Shown here piece after piece: positions 23,012 to 29,720 of a stretch of 57,289 bases of DNA. The notes below the pieces were generated by a model that made no database searches, had not been told where the DNA came from, and saw nothing but the letters and a program-made list of their open reading frames with translations. The translations under genes were made by a program, and so were the position numbers. Numbering within the stretch: the stretch's first letter is position 1; each line of letters opens with the position of its first letter. The DNA is from Candidatus Saccharimonadales bacterium (GTDB taxonomy: Bacteria; Patescibacteriota; Saccharimonadia; Saccharimonadales; UBA7683), in NCBI GenBank assembly GCA_046350615.1, contig JAXMAA010000004.1, forward strand, positions 1 through 57,289. The letters run 5' to 3'.

Positions 23012-23455
23012 ATGCGTAAAACAAAAAGCAAACAACTTGGTCGGCAGATTATTGAATACATGGTTGCTGGCGGCGCTTTTTTCTGGAGTGGTTACTCGGC
23101 ATTTGCGGTTTTTGATGCCGTTTTTCACTTGCCATTATTTGTTGCAAAACAGCTAGCAAATTTGATTGGTCTTGCCATTAACTACCTACTTGAAGATCAG
23201 TGGGTATTTAAGAAGGGTAAGAGTAGGCGGCAATATGATAAGCGGCGTGGGTATCGATATGTTGCTATAACGTTTATTAATTTCGCTATAGATTACGGAA
23301 TCGTCCTCGGCCTTAAAGAGCTTGGCATTACGCCGTATCTTGGGCAGTTCGCGAGCGCAGGATTTTTCACAATTTGGAATTTTCTTTGGTATAAATATTG
23401 GGTATTTGCTCATCATCCCTCAAAAAAGAAGAGTAAAAGGAGGATTCGAGCATGA
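23012..23455 (+). CDS. GtrA-family protein
   Basis: EYMVAGGAFF...INYLLEDQWVF...IWNFLWYKYWVF. Start likely ATG 23012, because 22898 would overlap galU. Confidence 0.85.
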   Translation: MRKTKSKQLGRQIIEYMVAGGAFFWSGYSAFAVFDAVFHLPLFVAKQLANLIGLAINYLLEDQWVFKKGKSRRQYDKRRGYRYVAITFINFAIDYGIVLGLKELGITPYLGQFASAGFFTIWNFLWYKYWVFAHHPSKKKSKRRIRA

Positions 23456-23892
23456 GCAGTATACGACCAACAAAAAAACAGCGTGAACTTCTAACTTTTA
23501 TTGAACAATTTATTGCGGAACAGGGTTACGGGCCGAGTTATCGTGAGATTATGAAAGGCTGTAATTATACATCGGTAGCTACGGTAGCTGTGCATATTAA
23601 TAATCTTATTTCTCGTGGCCATCTTAAAAAGCGTGATAACAGTGCGCGCTCGCTTGAAGTGGTAAAGGCCGAAGGCATCCCAGCTGCATCGCCTCAAATC
23701 AAAGTAACTGCAGCCAATGAAAAGTGGCTCGTTGATCTTATTGAGCACAAATTTCAAGCTGTTGAAACTGCGAAGAGAATAGAGCAAAAGGATTTAGACC
23801 AGCTTTACGTTATAACAGGTGCGCTCTCAGTACTCGGCTTTGACGGTGCAGCAGTAGCTTTCAAAACTCGACTCAAAGAGTTGGAAAAATAG
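23452..23892 (+). CDS. LexA-like winged-helix protein lacking the S24 peptidase domain
   Basis: TKKQRELLTFI...GYGPSYREIMKGCNYTSVATVAVHINNLISRGHLKK...ARSL. The C-terminal ~75 aa are helical with no Ala-Gly, Ser or Lys protease motifs. Confidence 0.8.
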   Translation: MSSIRPTKKQRELLTFIEQFIAEQGYGPSYREIMKGCNYTSVATVAVHINNLISRGHLKKRDNSARSLEVVKAEGIPAASPQIKVTAANEKWLVDLIEHKFQAVETAKRIEQKDLDQLYVITGALSVLGFDGAAVAFKTRLKELEK

Positions 23893-24065: not shown

Positions 24066-24140
24066 TCCGGCGTAGCTCAGCGGTAGAGCGGATGGCTGTT
24101 AACCATTAGGTCGCTGGTTCGAATCCAGCCGCCGGAGCCA
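24066..24140 (+). tRNA. tRNA-Asn(GTT) with encoded CCA
   Basis: Acceptor TCCGGCG/CGCCGGA, D arm AGCTCAGCGGTAGAGC, anticodon arm GATGG-CT GTT AA-CCATT, T loop GGTTCGAATCC, 3' GCCA. Confidence 0.97.
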
Positions 24141-24159
24141 AAAATTTTGCAACAGAGTT

Positions 24160-24193
24160 AGACCTGGTTCCTAGACCAGGTCTTTCTTTTTTT
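24160..24193 (+). terminator. Intrinsic terminator after tRNA-Asn
   Basis: AGACCTGGT/ACCAGGTCT stem followed by TTTCTTTTTTT. Confidence 0.85.
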
Positions 24194-24397
24194 GTAAAGC
24201 ACCCCTGATCTGTTAAATAGTTCGAACCTAATCGCTCAATTTGCCAAATAACAAACAAATGTTGGAACCACAGAAAATGACTGATTTTAAGCCGTTAACA
24301 CCTAAGAAATAGTTCCAAAACTGACCTGTTTTCCTATGAGGACTGAGCGGCCTGAAAATTGATATATTCCCATGACCTAACCAGGAGACACCAATAT

Positions 24398-24426
24398 TTG
24401 ACACAGCATGACACTTATGTTAATAT
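24398..24426 (+). promoter_or_regulatory. sigma70-type promoter of the ABC-F operon
   Basis: TTGACA 24398-403, 17-nt spacer, TG-t-TAATAT 24418-26. Confidence 0.8.
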
Positions 24427-24459
24427 CAGTGTAGTAATCAATCAAGGAGAAACAATAAG

Positions 24460-24486
24460 ATGATAAGAATCGCGCGAGCAAAGTAG
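24460..24486 (+). CDS. Putative leader peptide MIRIARAK
   Basis: SD AAGGAG 24444-49; ATG ATA AGA ATC GCG CGA GCA AAG TAG; lies between the promoter and the attenuator hairpin. Confidence 0.7.
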   Translation: MIRIARAK

Positions 24487-24541
24487 TCGCACAAGCGTCT
24501 TTTTTCGTATGATTCTTTCCTATTAGTTTAACTTCCTGTAA

Positions 24542-24593
24542 AAAAAGCCGAGCACTTGCGTGACTACTCACCTAAATGCTCGGCTTTTTGTTT
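24542..24593 (+). terminator. Attenuator-type hairpin in the ABC-F leader
   Basis: AAAAAGCCGAGCA (24542-54) pairs with TGCTCGGCTTTTT (24577-89), followed by GTTT and the ABC-F SD. Confidence 0.8.
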
Positions 24594-24603
24594 GGAGAAG
24601 ACT

Positions 24604-26094
24604 ATGTTAAACCTGTATAAAATTACAAAATCATATAAAGATAACCTTGTTCTCAAGGATGTTACTTTATCGGCTGGTCCAGGTGAGGTAATTGCCCTCA
24701 TTGGTGCAAACGGTGTCGGCAAGACAACTCTACTAAAAATACTACTCGGTGAGGTGGCTCCTGACGATGGGCAGATAACTAACCACCATGATGTTGTTGG
24801 CTATGTCCCTCAAGAGCTGGACAATCTTAATAAAACAATCGAAAAGAGCTTTGGCTCCATTGAGTCATGGCGAATTGACTATGCCCTTAATTTGGTTGAT
24901 CTGGGTACTGTCCCTAAGGATCGTCCTCTCAGTAATCTGAGTGGTGGTCAGAAAACTCGTGTGGCTATTGCCCAGGTTCTTGCTCAAGACCCCGAACCCA
25001 CAGTCCTATTATTAGATGAGCCTACAAATAACTTGGATGTAGAGGGTTTAGAATGGCTCGAGAGTTTCATCAAACGTTTCAAAGGTGCGGTTTTGTTTGT
25101 GAGTCATGACAGACAATTCATCAACACTGTCGCCACAAAGATTATCGAGCTTAAAGCCGGTGTAACAAAGCAGTACGGCGGTAACTACGAGTTCTATAAA
25201 CAGCAGAAAGATATCGAGTACCAGGCAGCACTTGAGAAATATGAGAAGCAGCAAGATGAGAAGAAGCGTCTCAAGAAAGCCATGGTCGCTCAGAAGGAGG
25301 CTACTAAACATGTCCACGAGCACATCAAGCGACCGGATAACGATAAGTATCAACGGGACTTTTTTAGAAATAGGGTTTCAGTAAAACTAGGTCAGAAAGC
25401 AAAAAATCTTGAGACTAGGCTAGACAAACTTGAAGATATCGAAAGACCTGATTTCGATAAGAACTACGAGTTTAGTTTAAAAGGAGCTCCTCATTCCAGT
25501 AAGTTATTAGTGCTGGTTAAGGAAGTTTCGAAGTCGTACGATAAGCACGTCGTTTTATCAGATATAAACTTTGAGATTAGAGGCAACATACATATCCACG
25601 TCAAGGGCTTAAATGGCTCGGGTAAATCGACACTACTGCACATTCTCGCCAAACAGCTTGCGCCTAGTAATGGCACGATCACTTATGGAGATAATGTTAC
25701 TGTAGGCTATTTTTCTCAGGATACAGAAGGCTTGAATTACAAAATCTCAGCCCTGGATAATTTGAGTATAACTGAAGCAAAGCAGGAGGTAATTTACCGT
25801 CAGGCTCGTAGTCTTGGAATCGCTGCCGAAGATCTCTTGAAGATGCCAGGTGAACTATCTCGTGGCCAACAGTCCAAGCTGGGCTTTGCTAAGTTGCTTT
25901 TAGCCAACCATGATCTAATTATTCTCGATGAGCCAACAAACCACCTTGATATTGCCACTAAAGAGCAGCTTGAAAAAGCTTTGCGAAACTACGAGGGAGC
26001 CGTGTTGGTTGCTTCGCACGATGTATACTTCTTAAAGCAGCTGAAAATAAATCAAACCCTAGAACTTAAAAATGGAAGGATCGTAGAATCATGA
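24604..26094 (+). CDS. ABC-F ATPase with long interdomain linker (antibiotic-resistance type, Msr/Vga/Sal-like)
   Basis: Two ABC cassettes (GANGVGKT/LSGGQ/LLDEPTN and GLNGSGKS/LSRGQ/ILDEPTNHLD), no TM segments, linker ending KAKNLETRLDKL. Start ATG 24604 after GGAG. Confidence 0.88.
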   Translation: MLNLYKITKSYKDNLVLKDVTLSAGPGEVIALIGANGVGKTTLLKILLGEVAPDDGQITNHHDVVGYVPQELDNLNKTIEKSFGSIESWRIDYALNLVDLGTVPKDRPLSNLSGGQKTRVAIAQVLAQDPEPTVLLLDEPTNNLDVEGLEWLESFIKRFKGAVLFVSHDRQFINTVATKIIELKAGVTKQYGGNYEFYKQQKDIEYQAALEKYEKQQDEKKRLKKAMVAQKEATKHVHEHIKRPDNDKYQRDFFRNRVSVKLGQKAKNLETRLDKLEDIERPDFDKNYEFSLKGAPHSSKLLVLVKEVSKSYDKHVVLSDINFEIRGNIHIHVKGLNGSGKSTLLHILAKQLAPSNGTITYGDNVTVGYFSQDTEGLNYKISALDNLSITEAKQEVIYRQARSLGIAAEDLLKMPGELSRGQQSKLGFAKLLLANHDLIILDEPTNHLDIATKEQLEKALRNYEGAVLVASHDVYFLKQLKINQTLELKNGRIVES

Positions 26095-27029
26095 AGCACT
26101 ACATAGTCAGTCTTGAAGAGGCAAAACAGTTCTTGAGCAGCCATTTTAACTCGAAGGTTACTCACGTCGAACTATTAAACGGGGGCGATTGGTCGGCGGC
26201 CTATGCGTATGTACTTGAGGGCGAAGAGTACGTCATTAGATTTGCTGCAAATCGTGAAGACTTTGCTAAAGATCAAGCTATCAGCAAATATGCTTCAAAA
26301 AAGCTCCATGTCCCAGAAGTTACTGAAGTAGGAGAAGCCTTAAGGGGTTATTACGCTGTATCAAAGCGGCATCATGGTATTTTTCTTGATGAAATCGATG
26401 GTGATCAGATGGGTAAAACACTACCCAGTCTCTTAAAGACTCTTGATGAAATCAGAGAAGTTAACTTAACAGGCACTACGGGCTATGGCTGGTGGGAGGC
26501 AAAGGGGGTGGGGAACTGCGCAACCTGGCAAGATTTTCTCATGAGCGGATTCGATGATAAGCCAGACGAGAGAACGCATGGCTGGCGTAAGAAATTGGAA
26601 TCTTCGTCAACAGGTACGGATCCATTTGATAGAATCCGCCGAACATTCGAAGCTCTTGCAGTAGATATGCCCGACGAAAGACACCTCATACACAACGACC
26701 TTTTATACCGAAATGTGTTGGTTGAAGATAATAAAATCTCTGTAGTTATTGATTGGGGTAACTCAATGTATGGCGACTTTCTCTACGACATCTCATTACT
26801 TATTTACTACTGGTCGTGGTTCCCAGAGTGGGAAGATATCGACATTAAACAGGTGATTCTCGATCATTATGCGAGCGTTGGCCTTGAGGTTCCAAATATA
26901 GAGAAGCGTCTACTTTGCTACCAAATCCATATTGGTTTAGACGGTATAAAGTACAGCGCATTCACTGGGAATCATGATCATCTAGAACAAAAGACTGAGC
27001 AGACCCTCAGACTTTTGGATTATCTTTGA
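26091..27029 (+). CDS. APH-family phosphotransferase, hygromycin B kinase (APH(4))-like
   Basis: HNDLLYRNVL (Brenner motif), IDWG; ATGA-coupled to the ABC-F; co-linear with recalled Hph motifs. Confidence 0.8.
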   Translation: MKHYIVSLEEAKQFLSSHFNSKVTHVELLNGGDWSAAYAYVLEGEEYVIRFAANREDFAKDQAISKYASKKLHVPEVTEVGEALRGYYAVSKRHHGIFLDEIDGDQMGKTLPSLLKTLDEIREVNLTGTTGYGWWEAKGVGNCATWQDFLMSGFDDKPDERTHGWRKKLESSSTGTDPFDRIRRTFEALAVDMPDERHLIHNDLLYRNVLVEDNKISVVIDWGNSMYGDFLYDISLLIYYWSWFPEWEDIDIKQVILDHYASVGLEVPNIEKRLLCYQIHIGLDGIKYSAFTGNHDHLEQKTEQTLRLLDYL

Positions 27030-27340
27030 AACAAGAGCTGAGATTCTCTAATCTGTAGCTTAGTCTCAATTCCTGCAGCAAAGGCCGTCCTATCATTCTC
27101 TGTGCCTCTACTAAGTATGTAACGAGCGTACTCTATGAGTGGTTCGTCCAACTTCTGCTGAATCTTGTAATGCCCTAGCAAAGTTTGGGTTGTGTGGTAA
27201 TGTTTCTCGATCTTCGCCTGAAGCTTATCGGTTATTCGGATATCTTTGTAGTTCTGCTCAATAAACTCTTGCAGAAGTACACAGAGGTTGTCTTCGTTGA
27301 TGTATTTCTCGGGGCAGTTCGGGTCTTTTCGTCTGGTGCA
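27020..27340 (-). pseudogene. C-terminal remnant of a large serine recombinase (copy 1), cut by the IS3 left end
   Basis: 107 open codons without a start: CTRRKDPNCPEKYINEDNLCVLLQEFIEQN...LIEYARYILSRGTE...LQIRESQLLFQR*; paralog of the 29079..29720 C-terminus. Confidence 0.8.
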
Positions 27341-27447
27341 GTGTCAGGCTCCCAATATACTAAACACACACCAGAACTAAACTAGCTAGTAAAAGAGGTG
27401 AACATTAAGCTAACATGTGGTAGACCATACCACAAGGAGTATTACAT

Positions 27448-27698
27448 ATGGCTAAACCAATAGACCCACAGCTAAAACAAGAAATAATGAATGCCGTTAA
27501 ATCCACATGACCCAGCAAGAAGCCAGCCGACTGTATGGCGTGACGCTCCTGAAGACTATTAGCAACTGGTGCCGCCAGGATGTGGTTGGTGGTGAGAAGA
27601 ACTACATCATCCAGATTAACCAGCTCAAACGGGAGCTGGACAACGCCTACCGAGTCATTGGTAAGCTCTCAGCCCGTGCTGATCGCCCAAAAGGCTAG
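27448..27698 (+). pseudogene. IS3 OrfA (HTH), frameshifted
   Basis: SD AAGGAG; MAKPIDPQLKQEIMNAVKS, then a frame change into MTQQEASRLYGV...KTISNW...QLKRELDNAYRVIGKL. Confidence 0.75.
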
Positions 27699-27736
27699 CC
27701 GCTCTGGAGGAGGTCGAGCCAGGACTCAAGCGGCAA

Positions 27737-28579
27737 ATGGCTAGAGCAGTAGGCATTGGCCGCACCAGCTTGTATATTCGTCCAACCATCCAATCCAGCA
27801 AAGACAACCAGCTAGTTCGAGAGCTTAAAGCCGCTCACGAAAGGCACCCACTGTACGGAGTACGTCGTCTTGCGCTGCATCTGGGTTGGAGTCAGAACAA
27901 GACTAGGCGGATCCGTCGGTTAAGCGGCGTCACCGCCGCCAAGCCTCACAAGAAGTATCGCAGTTGTGCTGGCAAGCCAGAGATTAACGCCCCAGCTAAC
28001 CATTTGCATACCTACGCCCTGTTCAAAAACAACAGTCGGCCTCAAGATGGCATGGATTACAGTGCAATGACCCAAGAAGCCAATGCTTGGTCGCAGGACT
28101 TTACCTACCTACGGATTCGTTCAGGTATGTTTTATCTAGCCTTAGTCATGGATCTTACAACTCGTGAGATATTGAGCTGGAAGCTCGGTACAAACCACAG
28201 CAGTAGTTTGACTCACGTTGCTCTAATTCAGGCTCTCAGAAACAACTCAAGCCCCAGTATCCTACATAGCGACCGTGGTAGTGAATATCTCAGCGAGCGT
28301 CACCAAAGCACCTGCGACAGGTTTGAAATAGCTCTCAGTGCTAGCAAACCAGGTAGCCCATGGCAAAACGGCTTCATGGAGCGTTGCGTTAAAAGTATTA
28401 AGGAAGAACTGGGTCCACTGAGCCAATACCATGACATTGACGAATTGTATGTTGGGGTTGCCAACGCTACCGCGTATTACAACAACGAACGCATCCATAC
28501 AAGCCTAAAAACCACACCAGCAGCTTACGCTGCTGGCCTAAAGCGTCTAGACAAAGTGTTCGTTAAAAAGGGAGCTTGA
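27737..28579 (+). CDS. IS3 OrfB DDE transposase
   Basis: YGVRRL, WSQDFTY, YLALVMD, LHSDRGSEY, SKPGSPWQNGFMER, YYNNERIHTSL. Confidence 0.93.
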   Translation: MARAVGIGRTSLYIRPTIQSSKDNQLVRELKAAHERHPLYGVRRLALHLGWSQNKTRRIRRLSGVTAAKPHKKYRSCAGKPEINAPANHLHTYALFKNNSRPQDGMDYSAMTQEANAWSQDFTYLRIRSGMFYLALVMDLTTREILSWKLGTNHSSSLTHVALIQALRNNSSPSILHSDRGSEYLSERHQSTCDRFEIALSASKPGSPWQNGFMERCVKSIKEELGPLSQYHDIDELYVGVANATAYYNNERIHTSLKTTPAAYAAGLKRLDKVFVKKGA

Positions 28580-28583
28580 CATA

Positions 28584-29084
28584 TTGCCCGTGAGCAAAGA
28601 CGAGGAATCCGCTATTAAGTTCGTAAAAGATTACCGCGGTTTACTAGAGGCTAGTGTAGAGAACTCGCAACAATATTCGTTTAAAGCATATTTAGTTCCA
28701 AAGATTGGCAACCATCGTACATCATCGGATCTTGCTATAGAGTTTGTCAAATACGATCCTAGCAGCCCTGAGGAGATGGAGAAGTACGATAAAGCAATAG
28801 TCGCCATCAAAGAGAAGCATATTCCTGTAGCGAATCAAGATCATATGAAGCCAAGCATGGTACTAGAAAAGCTGAAGGCAGCTGGGTATGAAAAGAACAT
28901 GAGTTGGCATACAGCTATGTGGAATAAGTATAAAGTACGACCATCTGGTGATGCTGCGAACAAAGAGACATGCAAAACCGAGTACTGCATATATGATAAG
29001 CCTCATCAGGATTACTTATATTCTGATGCCTGGGTGAGTATGCTTCTAGAAAAGGAACTACCTAAACGCCCTAAGTCTTCATAA
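28584..29084 (+). pseudogene. 5'-truncated fragment resembling the C-terminal half of DUF3644-family proteins
   Basis: Begins 2 nt after the IS right end with no SD; YLVPKIGNHRTSSDLAIEFVKYD...HTAMWNKYKVRP...YCIYDKPHQDYLYSDAWV. Confidence 0.5.
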
Positions 29085-29720
29085 GAACTCGAGAGTAGAT
29101 TCTTTTATTTGCAGATTTGTGGTTATCCCATCTGCAAAAGCCGTCATCTCGCTTTCAGTACCTTTCGTTAAGATATATCTAGAGTATTCGATGAGAGGTA
29201 TGTCTAGCTCACGTTCAACTTTGTAGTGATTGAAAAGAGTGCTAGTAACGTTGTGGTGTTTCTCGGCTTTCGCCATCAGTTTGTCACTGAATCGCATTTT
29301 TTCATGATTAGCCTCAATGAACTCAAGTAACTTTTCGCAGAGTGTTGGCTCGTTGATGTATTTCTCGGGACAATTCGGATCTTTCCGTCTGGTGCAGTTG
29401 TAATAGATGAATCGCTTAACCTCACCACTTTTCAATGTCTTATATTTGTCTTGCGCTGTTATGTCGGCTCCACACCTCCCGCATTTGAGTAGACCACGGA
29501 AGGCGAAGGTCTTTGATCCCCATATACCTTTGTACGCTCCTTTGCTCAGTTGGACTTGGTCGTAAAGTTCTTTGGATATCAGTGGCTTGTGTGCTCCTTT
29601 ATACCATGGAGCATCAGGAGCTTCCGGGTATTGGAATTTACCGTAGTAAAATGGAGTACTTAATATTACGAGTACCTGACTTAGACTCACCTGAGCTCCA
29701 GAGCGGTTGGTGAATCCTTG
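29079..29720 (-). pseudogene. Large serine recombinase remnant (copy 2): recombinase-domain end plus zinc ribbon, catalytic domain absent
   Basis: GFTNRSGAQVSLSQV..IL.TPFYYG, GAHKPLISKELYDQVQ, FRGLLKCGRCG, YYNC; in-frame TAG at 29721-23 upstream. Confidence 0.82.

What the first reader, a model, noticed from the sequence alone, without database searches (positions are those of the whole stretch)
24604..27029. ABC-F plus hygromycin-kinase-like operon: a candidate new two-gene resistance module in a CPR bacterium
Seen: an ARE-type ABC-F is ATGA-coupled to an APH whose segments (YVIRFA..REDFAKD, GYGWW...G.C.TWQDF, HLIHNDL..RNVL, IDWG..MYGD, RLLCYQIHIGLD) parallel the recalled APH(4)-Ia sequence. 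Known: msr-mph pairs combine ribosome protection with drug phosphorylation, but with Mph kinases. Inference: analogous logic aimed at a different ribosome inhibitor.
Basis: partly seen in the sequence, partly recalled or inferred. Interest (0 to 1): 0.7.

Follow-up and report, generated by a model that had tools for sequence, protein, structure and literature searches.

The report
Inducible ribosome-protection plus kinase operon
A tiny wastewater bacterium (Saccharibacteria) carries, on a mobile island next to a tRNA gene, a switch-controlled two-gene unit that most likely protects its ribosomes from an antibiotic and chemically inactivates a drug; the design is familiar, but both proteins belong to lineages that have not been described.

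Summary
An ABC-F gene (24604-26094) overlaps by ATGA an APH-fold kinase gene (26091-27029). The kinase's only clear characterised relative is APH(4)-Ia (27% identity, E 6e-36).

The resistance reading is supported by context, not by function:
- The genome has a second, housekeeping-type ABC-F.
- This ABC-F clade occurs in 3.5% of 401 Saccharimonadia genomes, and the kinase in 1.7%.
- Near-identical copies lie in another family and on IMG/VR contigs beside a serine integrase.
- The block starts at the 3' end of tRNA-Asn.
- The ABC-F has the Lsa/Msr build: no arm insert, a linker about 25 aa longer than E. coli ABC-Fs, and no C-terminal extension.
- It belongs to a strongly supported Patescibacteria-only clade, outside Msr, OptrA, PoxtA and the four E. 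coli families.
- A nearly invariant leader precedes it: consensus promoter, 8-codon uORF MIRIARAK, antiterminator and terminator. The same design recurs, with changed sequence, across the clade.
- Clade relatives are 4-nt-coupled to other partners: another APH-fold kinase, P-loop kinases, or an MFS pump.

The drug is unknown. Hygromycin B binds the 30S subunit, outside the known reach of ABC-Fs, so the kinase substrate is open.

Verdict: a new variant of a known kind of operon (msr-mph, lsa-lnu). Interest is moderate to high.

The parts
24066..24140 (+). tRNA-Asn (GTT). Its 3' end is the left border of the conserved island block.
   Evidence: ARAGORN. Homology with the IMG/VR contigs and with L001/L005 begins at 24134-24135.
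24134..27342 (.). Conserved mobile block: leader, ABC-F, APH and the 3' end of the serine integrase gene.
   Evidence: The block is 81-99% identical in L001-L005, L008 and L029-L033. Homology with all of them ends at 27342.
24398..24426 (+). Sigma-70-type promoter, TTGACA-17-TAATAT, with TG before the -10 hexamer.
   Evidence: Best promoter-like site in the region, 10 of 12 matches. The site is invariant in six loci.
24460..24486 (+). Leader ORF MIRIARAK-stop, with its own SD (AAGGAG).
   Evidence: Sequence. It is conserved as MIRIARAK, MIRIARVK, MAGRIRVK or MAGNIRVK in paired loci.
24465..24517 (+). Helix 1. Its 5' arm is made of leader codons 2-8, and its top holds the antiterminator strand.
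   Evidence: MFE and centroid folds, z = -3.8 against shuffles. The same arrangement is seen in 11 loci.
24476..24499 (+). Antiterminator 5' strand. It pairs with 24551-24582 inside the terminator.
   Evidence: Duplex energy -25.6 kcal/mol. Equivalent complementarity with different sequence is found in at least 6 sequence classes, z from -1.9 to -5.9.
24542..24598 (+). Intrinsic terminator. The core stem pairs 24547-24554 with 24577-24584, followed by a U tract. The extended base of the hairpin sequesters the ABC-F SD (24594-24597).
   Evidence: Folds. The hairpin is invariant across six loci whose coding DNA is only 81-84% identical.
24604..26094 (+). ABC-F ATPase, 496 aa. It has two intact NBDs, no arm insert, a long inter-domain linker and no C-terminal extension.
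   Evidence: Pfam and NCBIfam, motif spacing, tree, dN/dS 0.06-0.075.
26091..27029 (+). APH-fold small-molecule kinase, 312 aa, a distant relative of APH(4)-Ia. The catalytic H-x-D...N and IDW...GD motifs are kept.
   Evidence: dN/dS 0.05-0.07.
27020..27342 (-). Remnant of the island's large serine recombinase: the last 107 codons. It is convergent with the APH gene and overlaps its 3' end.
   Evidence: 97% DNA identity to the 3' end of the intact 430-aa integrase of L002 (Resolvase + Recombinase + Zn-ribbon domains; phrog_95).
27507..28579 (+). IS3-family element (short orfA plus an rve-domain orfB) just beyond the break in the integrase gene.
   Evidence: Pfam rve and rve_3. A 51%-identical IS3 transposase lies beside the solo APH of L006.

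Best explanation
This is a drug-inducible, horizontally mobile antibiotic-resistance operon with two layers.

Without drug. Transcripts from the promoter at 24398-24426 end at the terminator in front of the ABC-F gene. Ribosomes run through the 8-codon leader. Helix 1 and the terminator form, and the extended terminator also hides the ABC-F Shine-Dalgarno.

With drug. A ribosome-targeting drug holds a ribosome on the first codons of the leader. This melts the base of helix 1. The strand 24476-24499 then pairs with 24551-24582, the terminator cannot form, and both genes are made from one mRNA. The second gene is translated by coupling at ATGA.

The two proteins. The ABC-F has an Lsa/Msr-like build with a long linker. 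It is inferred to bind the ribosomal E site and dislodge a drug from the peptidyl-transferase centre or tunnel entrance of the 50S subunit. The kinase is inferred to phosphorylate a hydroxyl of an antibiotic. I favour the view that both act on one drug family that binds the peptidyl-transferase centre (lincosamide, pleuromutilin, streptogramin A or nucleoside type) rather than on hygromycin B.

Shown here:
- gene identities and architecture;
- coupling of the two genes;
- conservation of the pair;
- accessory and mobile distribution;
- conservation and covariation of the leader;
- purifying selection on both genes.

Inferred:
- induction by drug;
- ribosome protection;
- drug phosphorylation;
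- the identity of the drug.
For: Accessory, not core.
- The own genome has a second ABC-F of housekeeping build.
- The clade is present in 14 of 401 class genomes and 3 of 400 other genomes of the phylum. The APH is present in 7 of 401.

Mobile.
- Copies 96-99% identical lie in another family (G176) and on IMG/VR contigs beside a serine integrase.
- The block starts at the 3' end of tRNA-Asn, and neighbours differ between loci.

ARE build.
- Walker A1 to H-loop1 spans 132 aa (Lsa(E) 131, E. coli 168-176).
- H-loop1 to Walker A2 spans 165 aa (E. coli 137-140, Lsa(E) 169, Msr 172-173).
- There is no C-terminal extension.
- NF000355 passes its cut-off.

Tree.
- The clade is monophyletic (100/99) and lies outside EttA, Uup, YbiT, YheS, Msr, OptrA, PoxtA and the own-genome paralogue.
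- Lsa(E) is a weak sister.

Leader.
- It is about 96% identical where coding DNA is 81-84% identical and dS is 0.8-1.9.
- uORF, helix 1 and a terminator next to the SD occur in 11 loci.
- Antiterminator complementarity is kept while the sequence changes.
- This is the published ARE-ABCF control scheme. The uORF starts (MI-, MAG-, MR-) resemble the published consensus for VmlR (MIN), LsaA (MAGN) and CplR (MRI) (bioRxiv 10.1101/2022.12.05.519065).

Partner swapping.
- Subclades of the same ABC-F clade are 4-nt-coupled to an MFS pump, another APH-fold kinase, or AAA_33 P-loop kinases.
- These partners make sense as drug-handling proteins.

Other support.
- dN/dS is 0.05-0.075 for both genes.
- The locus is found in many activated-sludge and wastewater runs. 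Metatranscriptome contigs span the gene junction.
- Known analogues were fetched here: msr(E)-mph(E), lsa(E)-lnu(B) and mef(A)/msr(D).
Against: - No phenotype, induction or enzymology was tested or could be tested.
- The kinase's only characterised relative phosphorylates hygromycin B, a 30S drug, so the same-drug idea has no direct support.
- The R-[A/V]-K end of the leader is invariant in the APH-paired subclade. It matches the macrolide +x+ arrest motif of MefAL and ErmDL (PMC10314930). A stall there would cover the proposed antiterminator strand, so the stall site and the inducer class are unresolved.
- The tree lacks Vga, Sal, VmlR, YdiF and the actinobacterial AAF groups. Its deep nodes are weak and join long branches.
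- The RNA depth step at the terminator also appears in DNA runs, so it reflects collapse of strains and gives no evidence for attenuation.
- One relative (G186) keeps the kinase while its ABC-F has lost about 106 residues, and L006 carries the kinase alone. The kinase can therefore stand on its own.
Confidence: 0.45

Rival explanations
1. The operon is inducible and mobile as above, but the two genes cover different drugs. The ABC-F protects the 50S subunit from one class. The kinase is a true hygromycin B or aminocyclitol kinase that acts on a 30S inhibitor. They share a transcript only because resistance cassettes are compact.
For: - APH(4)-Ia is the only characterised relative with a strong score. 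The other APH models score 29 bits or less.
- In L001, L002 and L016 the island also holds APH(2'')-like and APH(3')-like kinases just upstream.
- The kinase occurs alone in L006 and beside a crippled ABC-F in G186.
- Mixed-class clusters are common around lsa(E) (one search shows lsa(E)-lnu(B); the wider aadE-spw cluster is from my own knowledge).
Against: - The match is 27% identity and 116 bits against a cut-off of 725, so substrate cannot be transferred.
- Residues next to the catalytic Asp differ (D-F-G-S-N-N in APH(4)-Ia, D-L-L-Y-R-N here), and Trp235 of APH(4)-Ia aligns with Tyr.
- The 4-nt coupling under one drug-sensing leader is kept from 52% to 99% kinase identity.
- The partner gene tracks ABC-F subclades, which suggests functional linkage.
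Confidence: 0.3
2. This is not a resistance unit. The ABC-F is a translation factor or an antibiotic-sensing regulator, as LmrC is in lincomycin producers. The kinase phosphorylates a metabolite or a protein.
For: - ABC-Fs of ARE build can have regulatory roles (PMC12421871, listed).
- The APH fold also includes homoserine, choline and fructosamine kinases, and weak Pfam hits to these are seen.
- No function was tested.
Against: - The distribution is sporadic (1.7-3.5%) and copies recently transferred between families are seen.
- The unit lies on an island with a tRNA and an integrase.
- The partner set includes an MFS exporter.
- A housekeeping-type ABC-F already exists in the genome.
Confidence: 0.12
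3. This is an anti-phage defence or abortive-infection pair carried in a defence island.
For: - Neighbours in related loci include a helicase and methyltransferase pair and DUF4268. A PDC-S19 fragment lies at 28584-29084.
- The ABC-F gives PADLOC hits to mad3 and AriA.
Against: - The PADLOC hits cover only generic ABC ATPase stretches, matched twice, once per NBD.
- The kinase has no PADLOC hit.
- A ribosome-sensing leader and an ARE-type linker are not features of known defence ATPases.
Confidence: 0.03

Closest known systems
msr(E)-mph(E) and msr(A)-mph(C) macrolide resistance operons
   Same: The gene order is an ABC-F followed by an APH-fold kinase on one transcript, carried on mobile DNA (msr(E)-mph(E) was fetched). 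The ABC-F is armless, has a long linker and has no C-terminal extension.
   Different: - The ABC-F is about 30% identical to Msr and falls outside the Msr clade. It scores 283 bits against the Msr cut-off of 680.
- The kinase is not an Mph. Only the catalytic loop aligns (E 0.004), and no Mph model is hit.
- The genes overlap by 4 nt, whereas msr(E) and mph(E) are separated by about 55 nt.
Lsa-type ARE ABC-Fs and the lsa(E)-lnu(B) pair; attenuator-controlled vmlR, cplR, lmo0919 and lsa(A)
   Same: - The domain spacing is nearly the same as in Lsa(E): 132/165 against 131/169.
- Lsa(E) is a weak sister in the tree, 92/75.
- Control is by a short uORF plus a terminator that hides the SD.
- The uORF starts resemble MIN, MRI and MAGN.
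- An ABC-F followed by a drug-modifying enzyme is also seen for lsa(E)-lnu(B).
   Different: - It scores 239 bits against the Lsa cut-off of 750 and is about 29% identical.
- The uORF has 7-9 codons rather than 3-4, and its 3' half doubles as the antiterminator strand.
- The partner is a kinase, not a nucleotidyltransferase.
- The host is a Patescibacterium.
APH(4)-Ia / Hph, hygromycin B 4-O-kinase (PDB 3TYK, 3W0M)
   Same: It is the best characterised relative over nearly the full length. The catalytic Asp and Asn and the Mg-binding IDW...GD are conserved, and the C-terminal helical region aligns.
   Different: - Identity is 27%, and the score is 116 bits against a cut-off of 725.
- The residues flanking the catalytic Asp and several aromatic positions of helix 6 differ.
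- It is 29 aa shorter at the C-terminus.
- It is coupled to an ABC-F, which APH(4)-Ia never is; on plasmids APH(4)-Ia sits beside aac(3)-IVa.
Producer self-resistance pairs of an ABC-F with a drug phosphotransferase (Ard1/Ard2 for A201A; Hyg28/Hyg21 for hygromycin A). From my own knowledge, apart from the Ard1 spectrum in 10.1101/2022.12.05.519065.
   Same: The logic is the same: ribosome protection plus phosphorylation of one drug that binds the peptidyl-transferase centre.
   Different: Those are actinomycete biosynthetic-cluster genes. Their sequences were not compared here, and I could not check whether they are adjacent or coupled.

Membership tests
ARE-type ABC-F (functional class) | Two ABC nucleotide-binding domains on one chain, with no membrane domain and intact Walker A/B, signature and H-loop motifs. 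| tested here: met
   Pfam finds ABC_tran twice plus ABC_tran_Xtn. The motifs lie at residues 34/335, 112/418, 134/438 and 166/470. NF000355 scores 436 bits, above its cut-off of 380.
ARE-type ABC-F (functional class) | The inter-domain linker (ARD) is longer than in housekeeping ABC-Fs. | tested here: met
   H-loop1 to Walker A2 spans 165 aa. The comparison values are 137-140 in EttA, Uup, YbiT and YheS, 169 in Lsa(E) and 172-173 in Msr. OptrA (139) and PoxtA (148) show that the feature is not universal among AREs.
ARE-type ABC-F (functional class) | Expression is controlled by a short uORF and a transcription terminator or attenuator. | tested here: met
   The structure and its conservation are shown. 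Response to a drug is not testable here, and the RNA depth data are inconclusive.
ARE-type ABC-F (functional class) | Confers resistance to a 50S-targeting antibiotic. | not testable with these tools
   This needs MIC assays.
Named ARE families (Msr, Vga, Lsa, Sal, OptrA, CplR, producer type) | Score above the curated NCBIfam cut-off, or placement inside the clade. | tested here: not met
   Scores against cut-offs: Sal 317/725, Vga 308/725, Msr 283/680, producer type 283/800, CplR 282/780, Lsa 239/750, OptrA 210/1450. The protein lies outside Msr, OptrA and PoxtA in the tree. Vga, Sal and VmlR were not in the tree.
Housekeeping ABC-F families (EttA, Uup, YbiT, YheS) | Score above the cut-off, an arm insert in NBD1, a near-universal presence in the lineage. 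| tested here: not met
   EttA 280/599, Uup 275/900, PRK15064 330/762. NBD1 spans 132 aa against 168-176. The clade is present in 3.5% of class genomes and lies outside these families in the tree.
APH(4) hygromycin B kinases | APH fold with the catalytic H-x-D-x4-N loop and the Mg-binding D of IDW. | tested here: met
   HNDLLYRN and IDWGNSMYGD align with HADFGSNN and IDWSEAMFGD of APH(4)-Ia.
APH(4) hygromycin B kinases | Score above the NF000107 cut-off (family-level identity). | tested here: not met
   116 bits against 725, and 27% identity.
APH(4) hygromycin B kinases | Conserved hygromycin B contact residues, and hygromycin B phosphorylation. | not testable with these tools
   The structure paper (PMC3023493) is not held and no ligand contacts are available. 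The alignment shows changes next to the catalytic Asp and at W235 (to Y) and N231 (to L), but their role is recalled from memory only.
msr-mph type operon | The kinase belongs to the Mph family. | tested here: not met
   No Mph model is among the NCBIfam hits. BLASTP against Mph(E) aligns only 42 residues, E 0.004.
msr-mph type operon | A macrolide-sensing leader (+x+ arrest motif). | tested here: inconclusive
   The leader ends in R-A-K, and R-[A/V]-K is invariant in the paired subclade, as in MefAL MTASMRLR. A stall there would cover the antiterminator strand.

The most novel reading that the evidence does not exclude
Patescibacteria have their own lineage of attenuator-controlled ARE ABC-F proteins. 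It works as a modular platform: the ABC-F dislodges a drug from the ribosome, and a translationally coupled, interchangeable partner disposes of the released drug. The partner can be an APH(4)-like kinase, another APH-fold kinase, a P-loop kinase or an MFS pump. On this reading the APH(4)-like partner is not a hygromycin B kinase. It would be the first kinase of that lineage aimed at an antibiotic that binds the peptidyl-transferase centre, for example a lincosamide or a hygromycin A/A201A-type nucleoside made by the actinomycete hosts on which Saccharibacteria live.
Probability: 0.3. Interest if true: 0.8.

Novelty: new variant of a known kind. Interest (0 to 1): 0.6.

Why it matters
Operons that join ribosome protection with drug inactivation are a major clinical resistance design (msr-mph, lsa-lnu). 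This locus shows the same design built independently from an undescribed ABC-F clade and an undescribed kinase lineage. It sits in ultra-small epibiotic bacteria that are abundant in wastewater, on an integrase-borne island that has recently moved between Saccharibacteria families.

What it offers:
- a new ARE subfamily with a natural series of swapped partners and matching leader peptides, which is a ready-made system for asking how uORF sequence, ABC-F specificity and partner enzyme co-evolve;
- a candidate new antibiotic kinase specificity;
- evidence that CPR bacteria, which live attached to antibiotic-producing actinomycetes, keep inducible ribosome defences despite 1-Mb genomes.

The main text of the CPR resistome survey (PMC8651080) does not mention ABC-F or APH genes.

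Tried and rejected
- RNA evidence for attenuation. Metatranscriptome contigs show 2.5-3.5 times more depth on the leader than on the ORF. DNA runs show the same step. It therefore reflects collapse of several strains onto the invariant leader. Rejected as evidence.
- A thermodynamic antiterminator with a ribosome placed on codons 5-8. The terminator still wins. Only a ribosome on the first codons frees the complementary strand.
- Hygromycin B contact residues. The structure paper is not held, and the other papers gave no contact list.
- Reference sequences for Vga, Sal and VmlR. The accession guess failed, so these families are missing from the tree.
- An att core shared by the tRNA 3' end and the integrase-tail borders. 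No shared word of 7 nt or more was found.
- Plasmid and phage-record relatives. No plasmid holds a relative of the ABC-F above 35% identity or of the kinase above 38%.
- The anti-phage defence reading. PADLOC gives only generic ATPase matches.
- Pairing outside Patescibacteria. A 48%-identical APH on a 132-kb unnamed JGI metagenome contig, the 38-39% relatives, and the 68% copy in L006 all lack an adjacent ABC-F.
Full report
OBSERVATION. The ORF table and the sequence show an ABC-F gene and an APH-fold kinase gene on the + strand. They are joined by an ATGA overlap at 26091-26094. It has a GGAG Shine-Dalgarno at 24594-24597 and is the conserved start in relatives. The longer TTG ORF from 24556 would begin inside a terminator hairpin. 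Pfam finds two ABC_tran domains with the ABC_tran_Xtn linker in the first protein and the APH family in the second. NCBIfam places the first above the cut-off of NF000355 'ribosomal protection-like ABC-F' (436 against 380 bits). For the second, only APH(4)-Ia gives a strong hit, and that is far below the family cut-off (116 against 725 bits). PDB chains of Hph/APH(4)-Ia match at E about 4e-33, and BLASTP gives 27% identity over 301 residues. Near-identical loci come from Candidatus Saccharibacteria MAGs, and the window's genome is 1.0 Mb and 99% complete. The CPR assignment holds.

THE PAIR IS A CONSERVED UNIT. The same two genes with the same overlap occur in five Saccharibacteria MAGs (L001-L005; ABC-F 87-99%, APH 83-99%). 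They also occur in G069 (79/63%) and G003 (71/68%), in L051 (58/69%) and in L050 (59/52%). Matching contig lengths in the two homologue lists point to four more pairs that were not otherwise checked here (P0004/P0122, P0009/P0159, P0011/P0148, P0023/P0144). There are two exceptions. L006 has a 68% APH standing alone beside an IS3 element in a 1.9-Mb genome. G186 has an intact kinase, but its ABC-F has an in-frame loss of about 106 residues that include the second Walker A. Relatives of the kinase at 38-48% identity have no ABC-F next to them; these are an Actinomycetota MAG (L007), three Saccharimonadia genomes and an unnamed JGI metagenome contig. Both genes are under strong purifying selection, with dN/dS 0.05-0.075 at dS 0.8-1.9.

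ACCESSORY AND MOBILE. The genome holds a second ABC-F (555 aa, 25-29% identical). It has the arm insert and the domain spacing of housekeeping ABC-Fs and fails the NF000355 cut-off. In an even sample of 401 genomes of the class, the kinase (E at most 1e-60) is in 7, and the ABC-F clade (43% identity or more) is in 14. In 400 other genomes of the phylum, 3 have a 37-41% relative. A copy 96-99% identical lies in a different family (G176). A tRNA-Asn gene lies at 24066-24140. Homology with two IMG/VR contigs and with L001 and L005 starts at 24134-24135, the 3' end of that tRNA. Homology with all relatives ends at 27342. In the relatives an intact 425-430-aa large serine recombinase (phrog_95 integrase) converges on the kinase gene and overlaps its stop. 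Beyond it lie a terminase, DUF4268, an FtsK-like protein, or a helicase and methyltransferase pair, depending on the locus. In this window only the last 107 codons of that integrase remain (27020-27342). An IS3-family element follows (27507-28579). The island here is therefore probably immobilised. The block is present in many activated-sludge and wastewater runs from at least a dozen studies.

WHAT KIND OF ABC-F. No plasmid in PLSDB holds a relative above 35% identity. Msr(A/D/E), Lsa(E), OptrA and PoxtA are 27-32% identical. I built a maximum-likelihood tree from 24 clade members and these references: Msr(A), Msr(D), Msr(E), Lsa(E), OptrA, PoxtA, three unnamed plasmid ABC-Fs, E. coli EttA, Uup, YbiT and YheS, and the genome's own second ABC-F. 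The Patescibacteria sequences form one clade (100/99). They are separate from all housekeeping references and from Msr, OptrA and PoxtA. Lsa(E) is a weak, long-branch sister (92/75). Vga, Sal, VmlR, YdiF and the actinobacterial groups could not be fetched, so the deep placement is provisional. Domain spacing gives a test that does not depend on the tree:
- Walker A1 to H-loop1 spans 132 aa, against 131 in Lsa(E), 115-117 in Msr and 168-176 in the E. coli proteins. There is no arm insert.
- H-loop1 to Walker A2 spans 165 aa, against 137-140 in the E. coli proteins, 139-148 in OptrA and PoxtA, 169 in Lsa(E) and 172-173 in Msr.
- Only 23 residues follow the second H-loop.
This is the Lsa/Msr build, with the long linker that in solved complexes reaches the peptidyl-transferase centre (established knowledge; the structures are listed).

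THE LEADER. Between the tRNA terminator and the ABC-F lie these elements:
- a TTGACA-17-TAATAT promoter (24398-24426);
- an SD and an 8-codon ORF, MIRIARAK-stop (24460-24486);
- a hairpin whose 5' arm is made of leader codons 2-8 (24465-24517);
- a strong terminator (core 24547-24554 paired with 24577-24584, then a U tract) whose extended base pairs with the ABC-F SD.
The fold is more stable than all 200 shuffles (z = -3.8). This 210-nt stretch is about 96% identical across six loci whose coding DNA is 81-84% identical. A second pairing, 24476-24499 with 24551-24582 (-25.6 kcal/mol), excludes the terminator.

The same layout recurs upstream of clade members down to 43% identity. The leader peptides are:
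- MIRIARAK, MIRIARVK, MAGRIRVK and MAGNIRVK in APH-paired loci;
- MIDLINR in an MFS-paired locus;
- MRGIINS and MIVIINR in loci paired with P-loop kinases;
- MIDIINS, MIQLTNS and MAPKQLRQN elsewhere.
In 11 loci falling into at least six sequence classes, the segment just after the uORF stop is complementary to the 5' arm or loop of that locus's own terminator. Duplex energies are -17 to -21.5 kcal/mol, with z from -1.9 to -5.9 against shuffles. The sequences themselves differ between classes (GUAGUCGCACAAG, GAUGUCACGCUG, UAAUCACAUGAGC, AACCAGCUGC), which is covariation.

This is the published control scheme of ARE ABC-Fs. In the cplR leader, the case worked out in the paper read here, a 5' hairpin holds the uORF, the terminator hides the SD, and a drug-stalled ribosome relieves termination. 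That paper gives the uORF consensus as MIN for VmlR, MR[I/M] for CplR and MAGN for LsaA (bioRxiv 10.1101/2022.12.05.519065). The starts of the Patescibacteria leaders (MI-, MAG-, MR-) look like these. Constrained folds show that only a ribosome held on the first codons leaves the antiterminator strand free. A ribosome on codons 5-8 covers it. That favours inducers which trap ribosomes at or just after initiation (pleuromutilins, lincosamides, streptogramin A, nucleoside antibiotics).

Against this, the R-[A/V]-K end of the leader is invariant in the APH-paired subclade. It equals the macrolide +x+ arrest motif of MefAL (MTASMRLR) and ErmDL (PMC10314930). The inducer class is therefore open.

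I looked for direct RNA evidence. Wastewater metatranscriptome contigs cover both genes and span the junction, and leader contigs are 2.5-3.5 times deeper than ORF contigs. DNA runs show the same step. It comes from several strains sharing the invariant leader and says nothing about attenuation.

PARTNER SWAPPING. More distant members of the same ABC-F clade are also followed, with a 4-nt overlap, by a second gene:
- a 391-aa MFS transporter (two loci in G155);
- a 307-aa APH-fold kinase unrelated to the APH(4)-like one beyond the catalytic loop (G018);
- 156-157-aa AAA_33 P-loop kinases (G105, G304).
Partner type follows ABC-F subclades. In L001, L002 and L016 a 2.85-kb insert between window positions 24383 and 24394 adds an APH(2'')-like kinase, an APH(3')-like kinase and two small ORFs upstream of the leader. 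Kinases and an exporter are what one expects for drug handling. PADLOC finds nothing specific for the pair.

MECHANISM AND ITS LIMITS. The best-supported reading is an inducible operon in which the ABC-F frees ribosomes from a 50S-binding drug and the kinase inactivates a drug by phosphorylation. This is the logic of msr(E)-mph(E) and lsa(E)-lnu(B), whose annotated loci I fetched for comparison. The kinase keeps the catalytic Asp and Asn and the Mg-binding Asp, so it should be active. Its substrate cannot be read from 27% identity. The residues next to the catalytic Asp differ (D-F-G-S-N-N in APH(4)-Ia, D-L-L-Y-R-N here), and so do aromatic positions of helix 6. Hygromycin B binds the 30S decoding site, where no ABC-F is known to act (established knowledge). 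Two options follow. In the first, the kinase targets the same drug class as the ABC-F; I favour this because the coupling and the co-evolution with the leader are kept over long divergence. In the second, the operon covers two drugs; this is supported by the solo kinases and by the aminoglycoside-kinase-like neighbours. Phosphorylation of drugs that bind the peptidyl-transferase centre is known for hygromycin A, A201A, chloramphenicol, macrolides and lincosamides (my own knowledge, not checked here).

COMPARISON AND NOVELTY. The locus works like msr-mph and lsa-lnu operons and is regulated like vmlR, cplR and lsa(A). It is a member of none of the named ARE families or of the Mph or APH(4) families by their curated cut-offs. 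Full-text searches found no paper joining Saccharibacteria with ABC-F resistance proteins. The main text of the CPR resistome survey mentions neither ABC-F nor APH genes. Earlier notes of this scan describe the attenuator here and similar cassettes in other Saccharibacteria. They agree with what I found independently, but they are not independent evidence. I rate the finding a new variant of a known kind, with interest 0.6. The design is familiar. What raises the interest is the lineage, its modular partners with matching leaders, and its mobility in CPR bacteria.

Noticed in passing
L001/L002/L016, inserted between window positions 24383 and 24394: A 2.85-kb insert upstream of the leader carries an APH(2'')-like kinase (299 aa, 68 bits to APH(2'')-IIIa), an APH(3')-like kinase (318 aa) and two small ORFs with no family. 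In those genomes the locus therefore holds three kinases plus the ABC-F.
   Followed up: partly
window 28584-29084 (+): The 166-aa ORF is the C-terminal half of a PDC-S19 candidate phage-defence protein (PADLOC 178 bits, profile positions 174-330 of 353). A full-length 325-aa homologue lies in L013 at 1950-2927. Here the N-terminal half is missing, next to the IS3 element.
   Followed up: partly
window 27020-27342 (-) and 29079-29720 (-): Two diverged C-terminal pieces of large serine recombinases (about 70% DNA identity), each overlapping the 3' end of a plus-strand cargo gene. They are cut at different points of the zinc-ribbon region. No core of 7 nt or more is shared with the tRNA 3' end.
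   Followed up: partly
G186 (L015 4862-6178, minus strand): The ABC-F of this pair has an in-frame loss of about 106 residues (query residues 279-384) that removes the second Walker A. The leader (MAGNIRVK) and the kinase stay intact.
   Followed up: no
L006 6001-8352: A 68%-identical APH stands alone in a 1.9-Mb uncultured-bacterium chromosome. An IS3-family transposase lies downstream that is 51% identical to the one at window 27737-28579. IS3 elements may move the kinase on its own.
   Followed up: no
G000 contig C1 189436-190248 (-): A second APH-fold paralogue (32% identical to the window kinase) lies elsewhere in the same genome. The same paralogue is present in G015.
   Followed up: no
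window 23452-23892 (+): A 146-aa protein with a LexA DNA-binding domain but apparently no peptidase domain lies just upstream of tRNA-Asn. It is preceded by a GtrA-like membrane protein. Both are shared only with L004.
   Followed up: no
L020 2488-2961 and L023 306-776: The AAA_33 P-loop kinases coupled to ABC-Fs of the sister subclade give a weak NCBIfam hit (20 bits, cut-off 170) to Gar/GrdA gentamicin-resistance ATP-binding proteins. They give no hit to the chloramphenicol phosphotransferase family.
   Followed up: no
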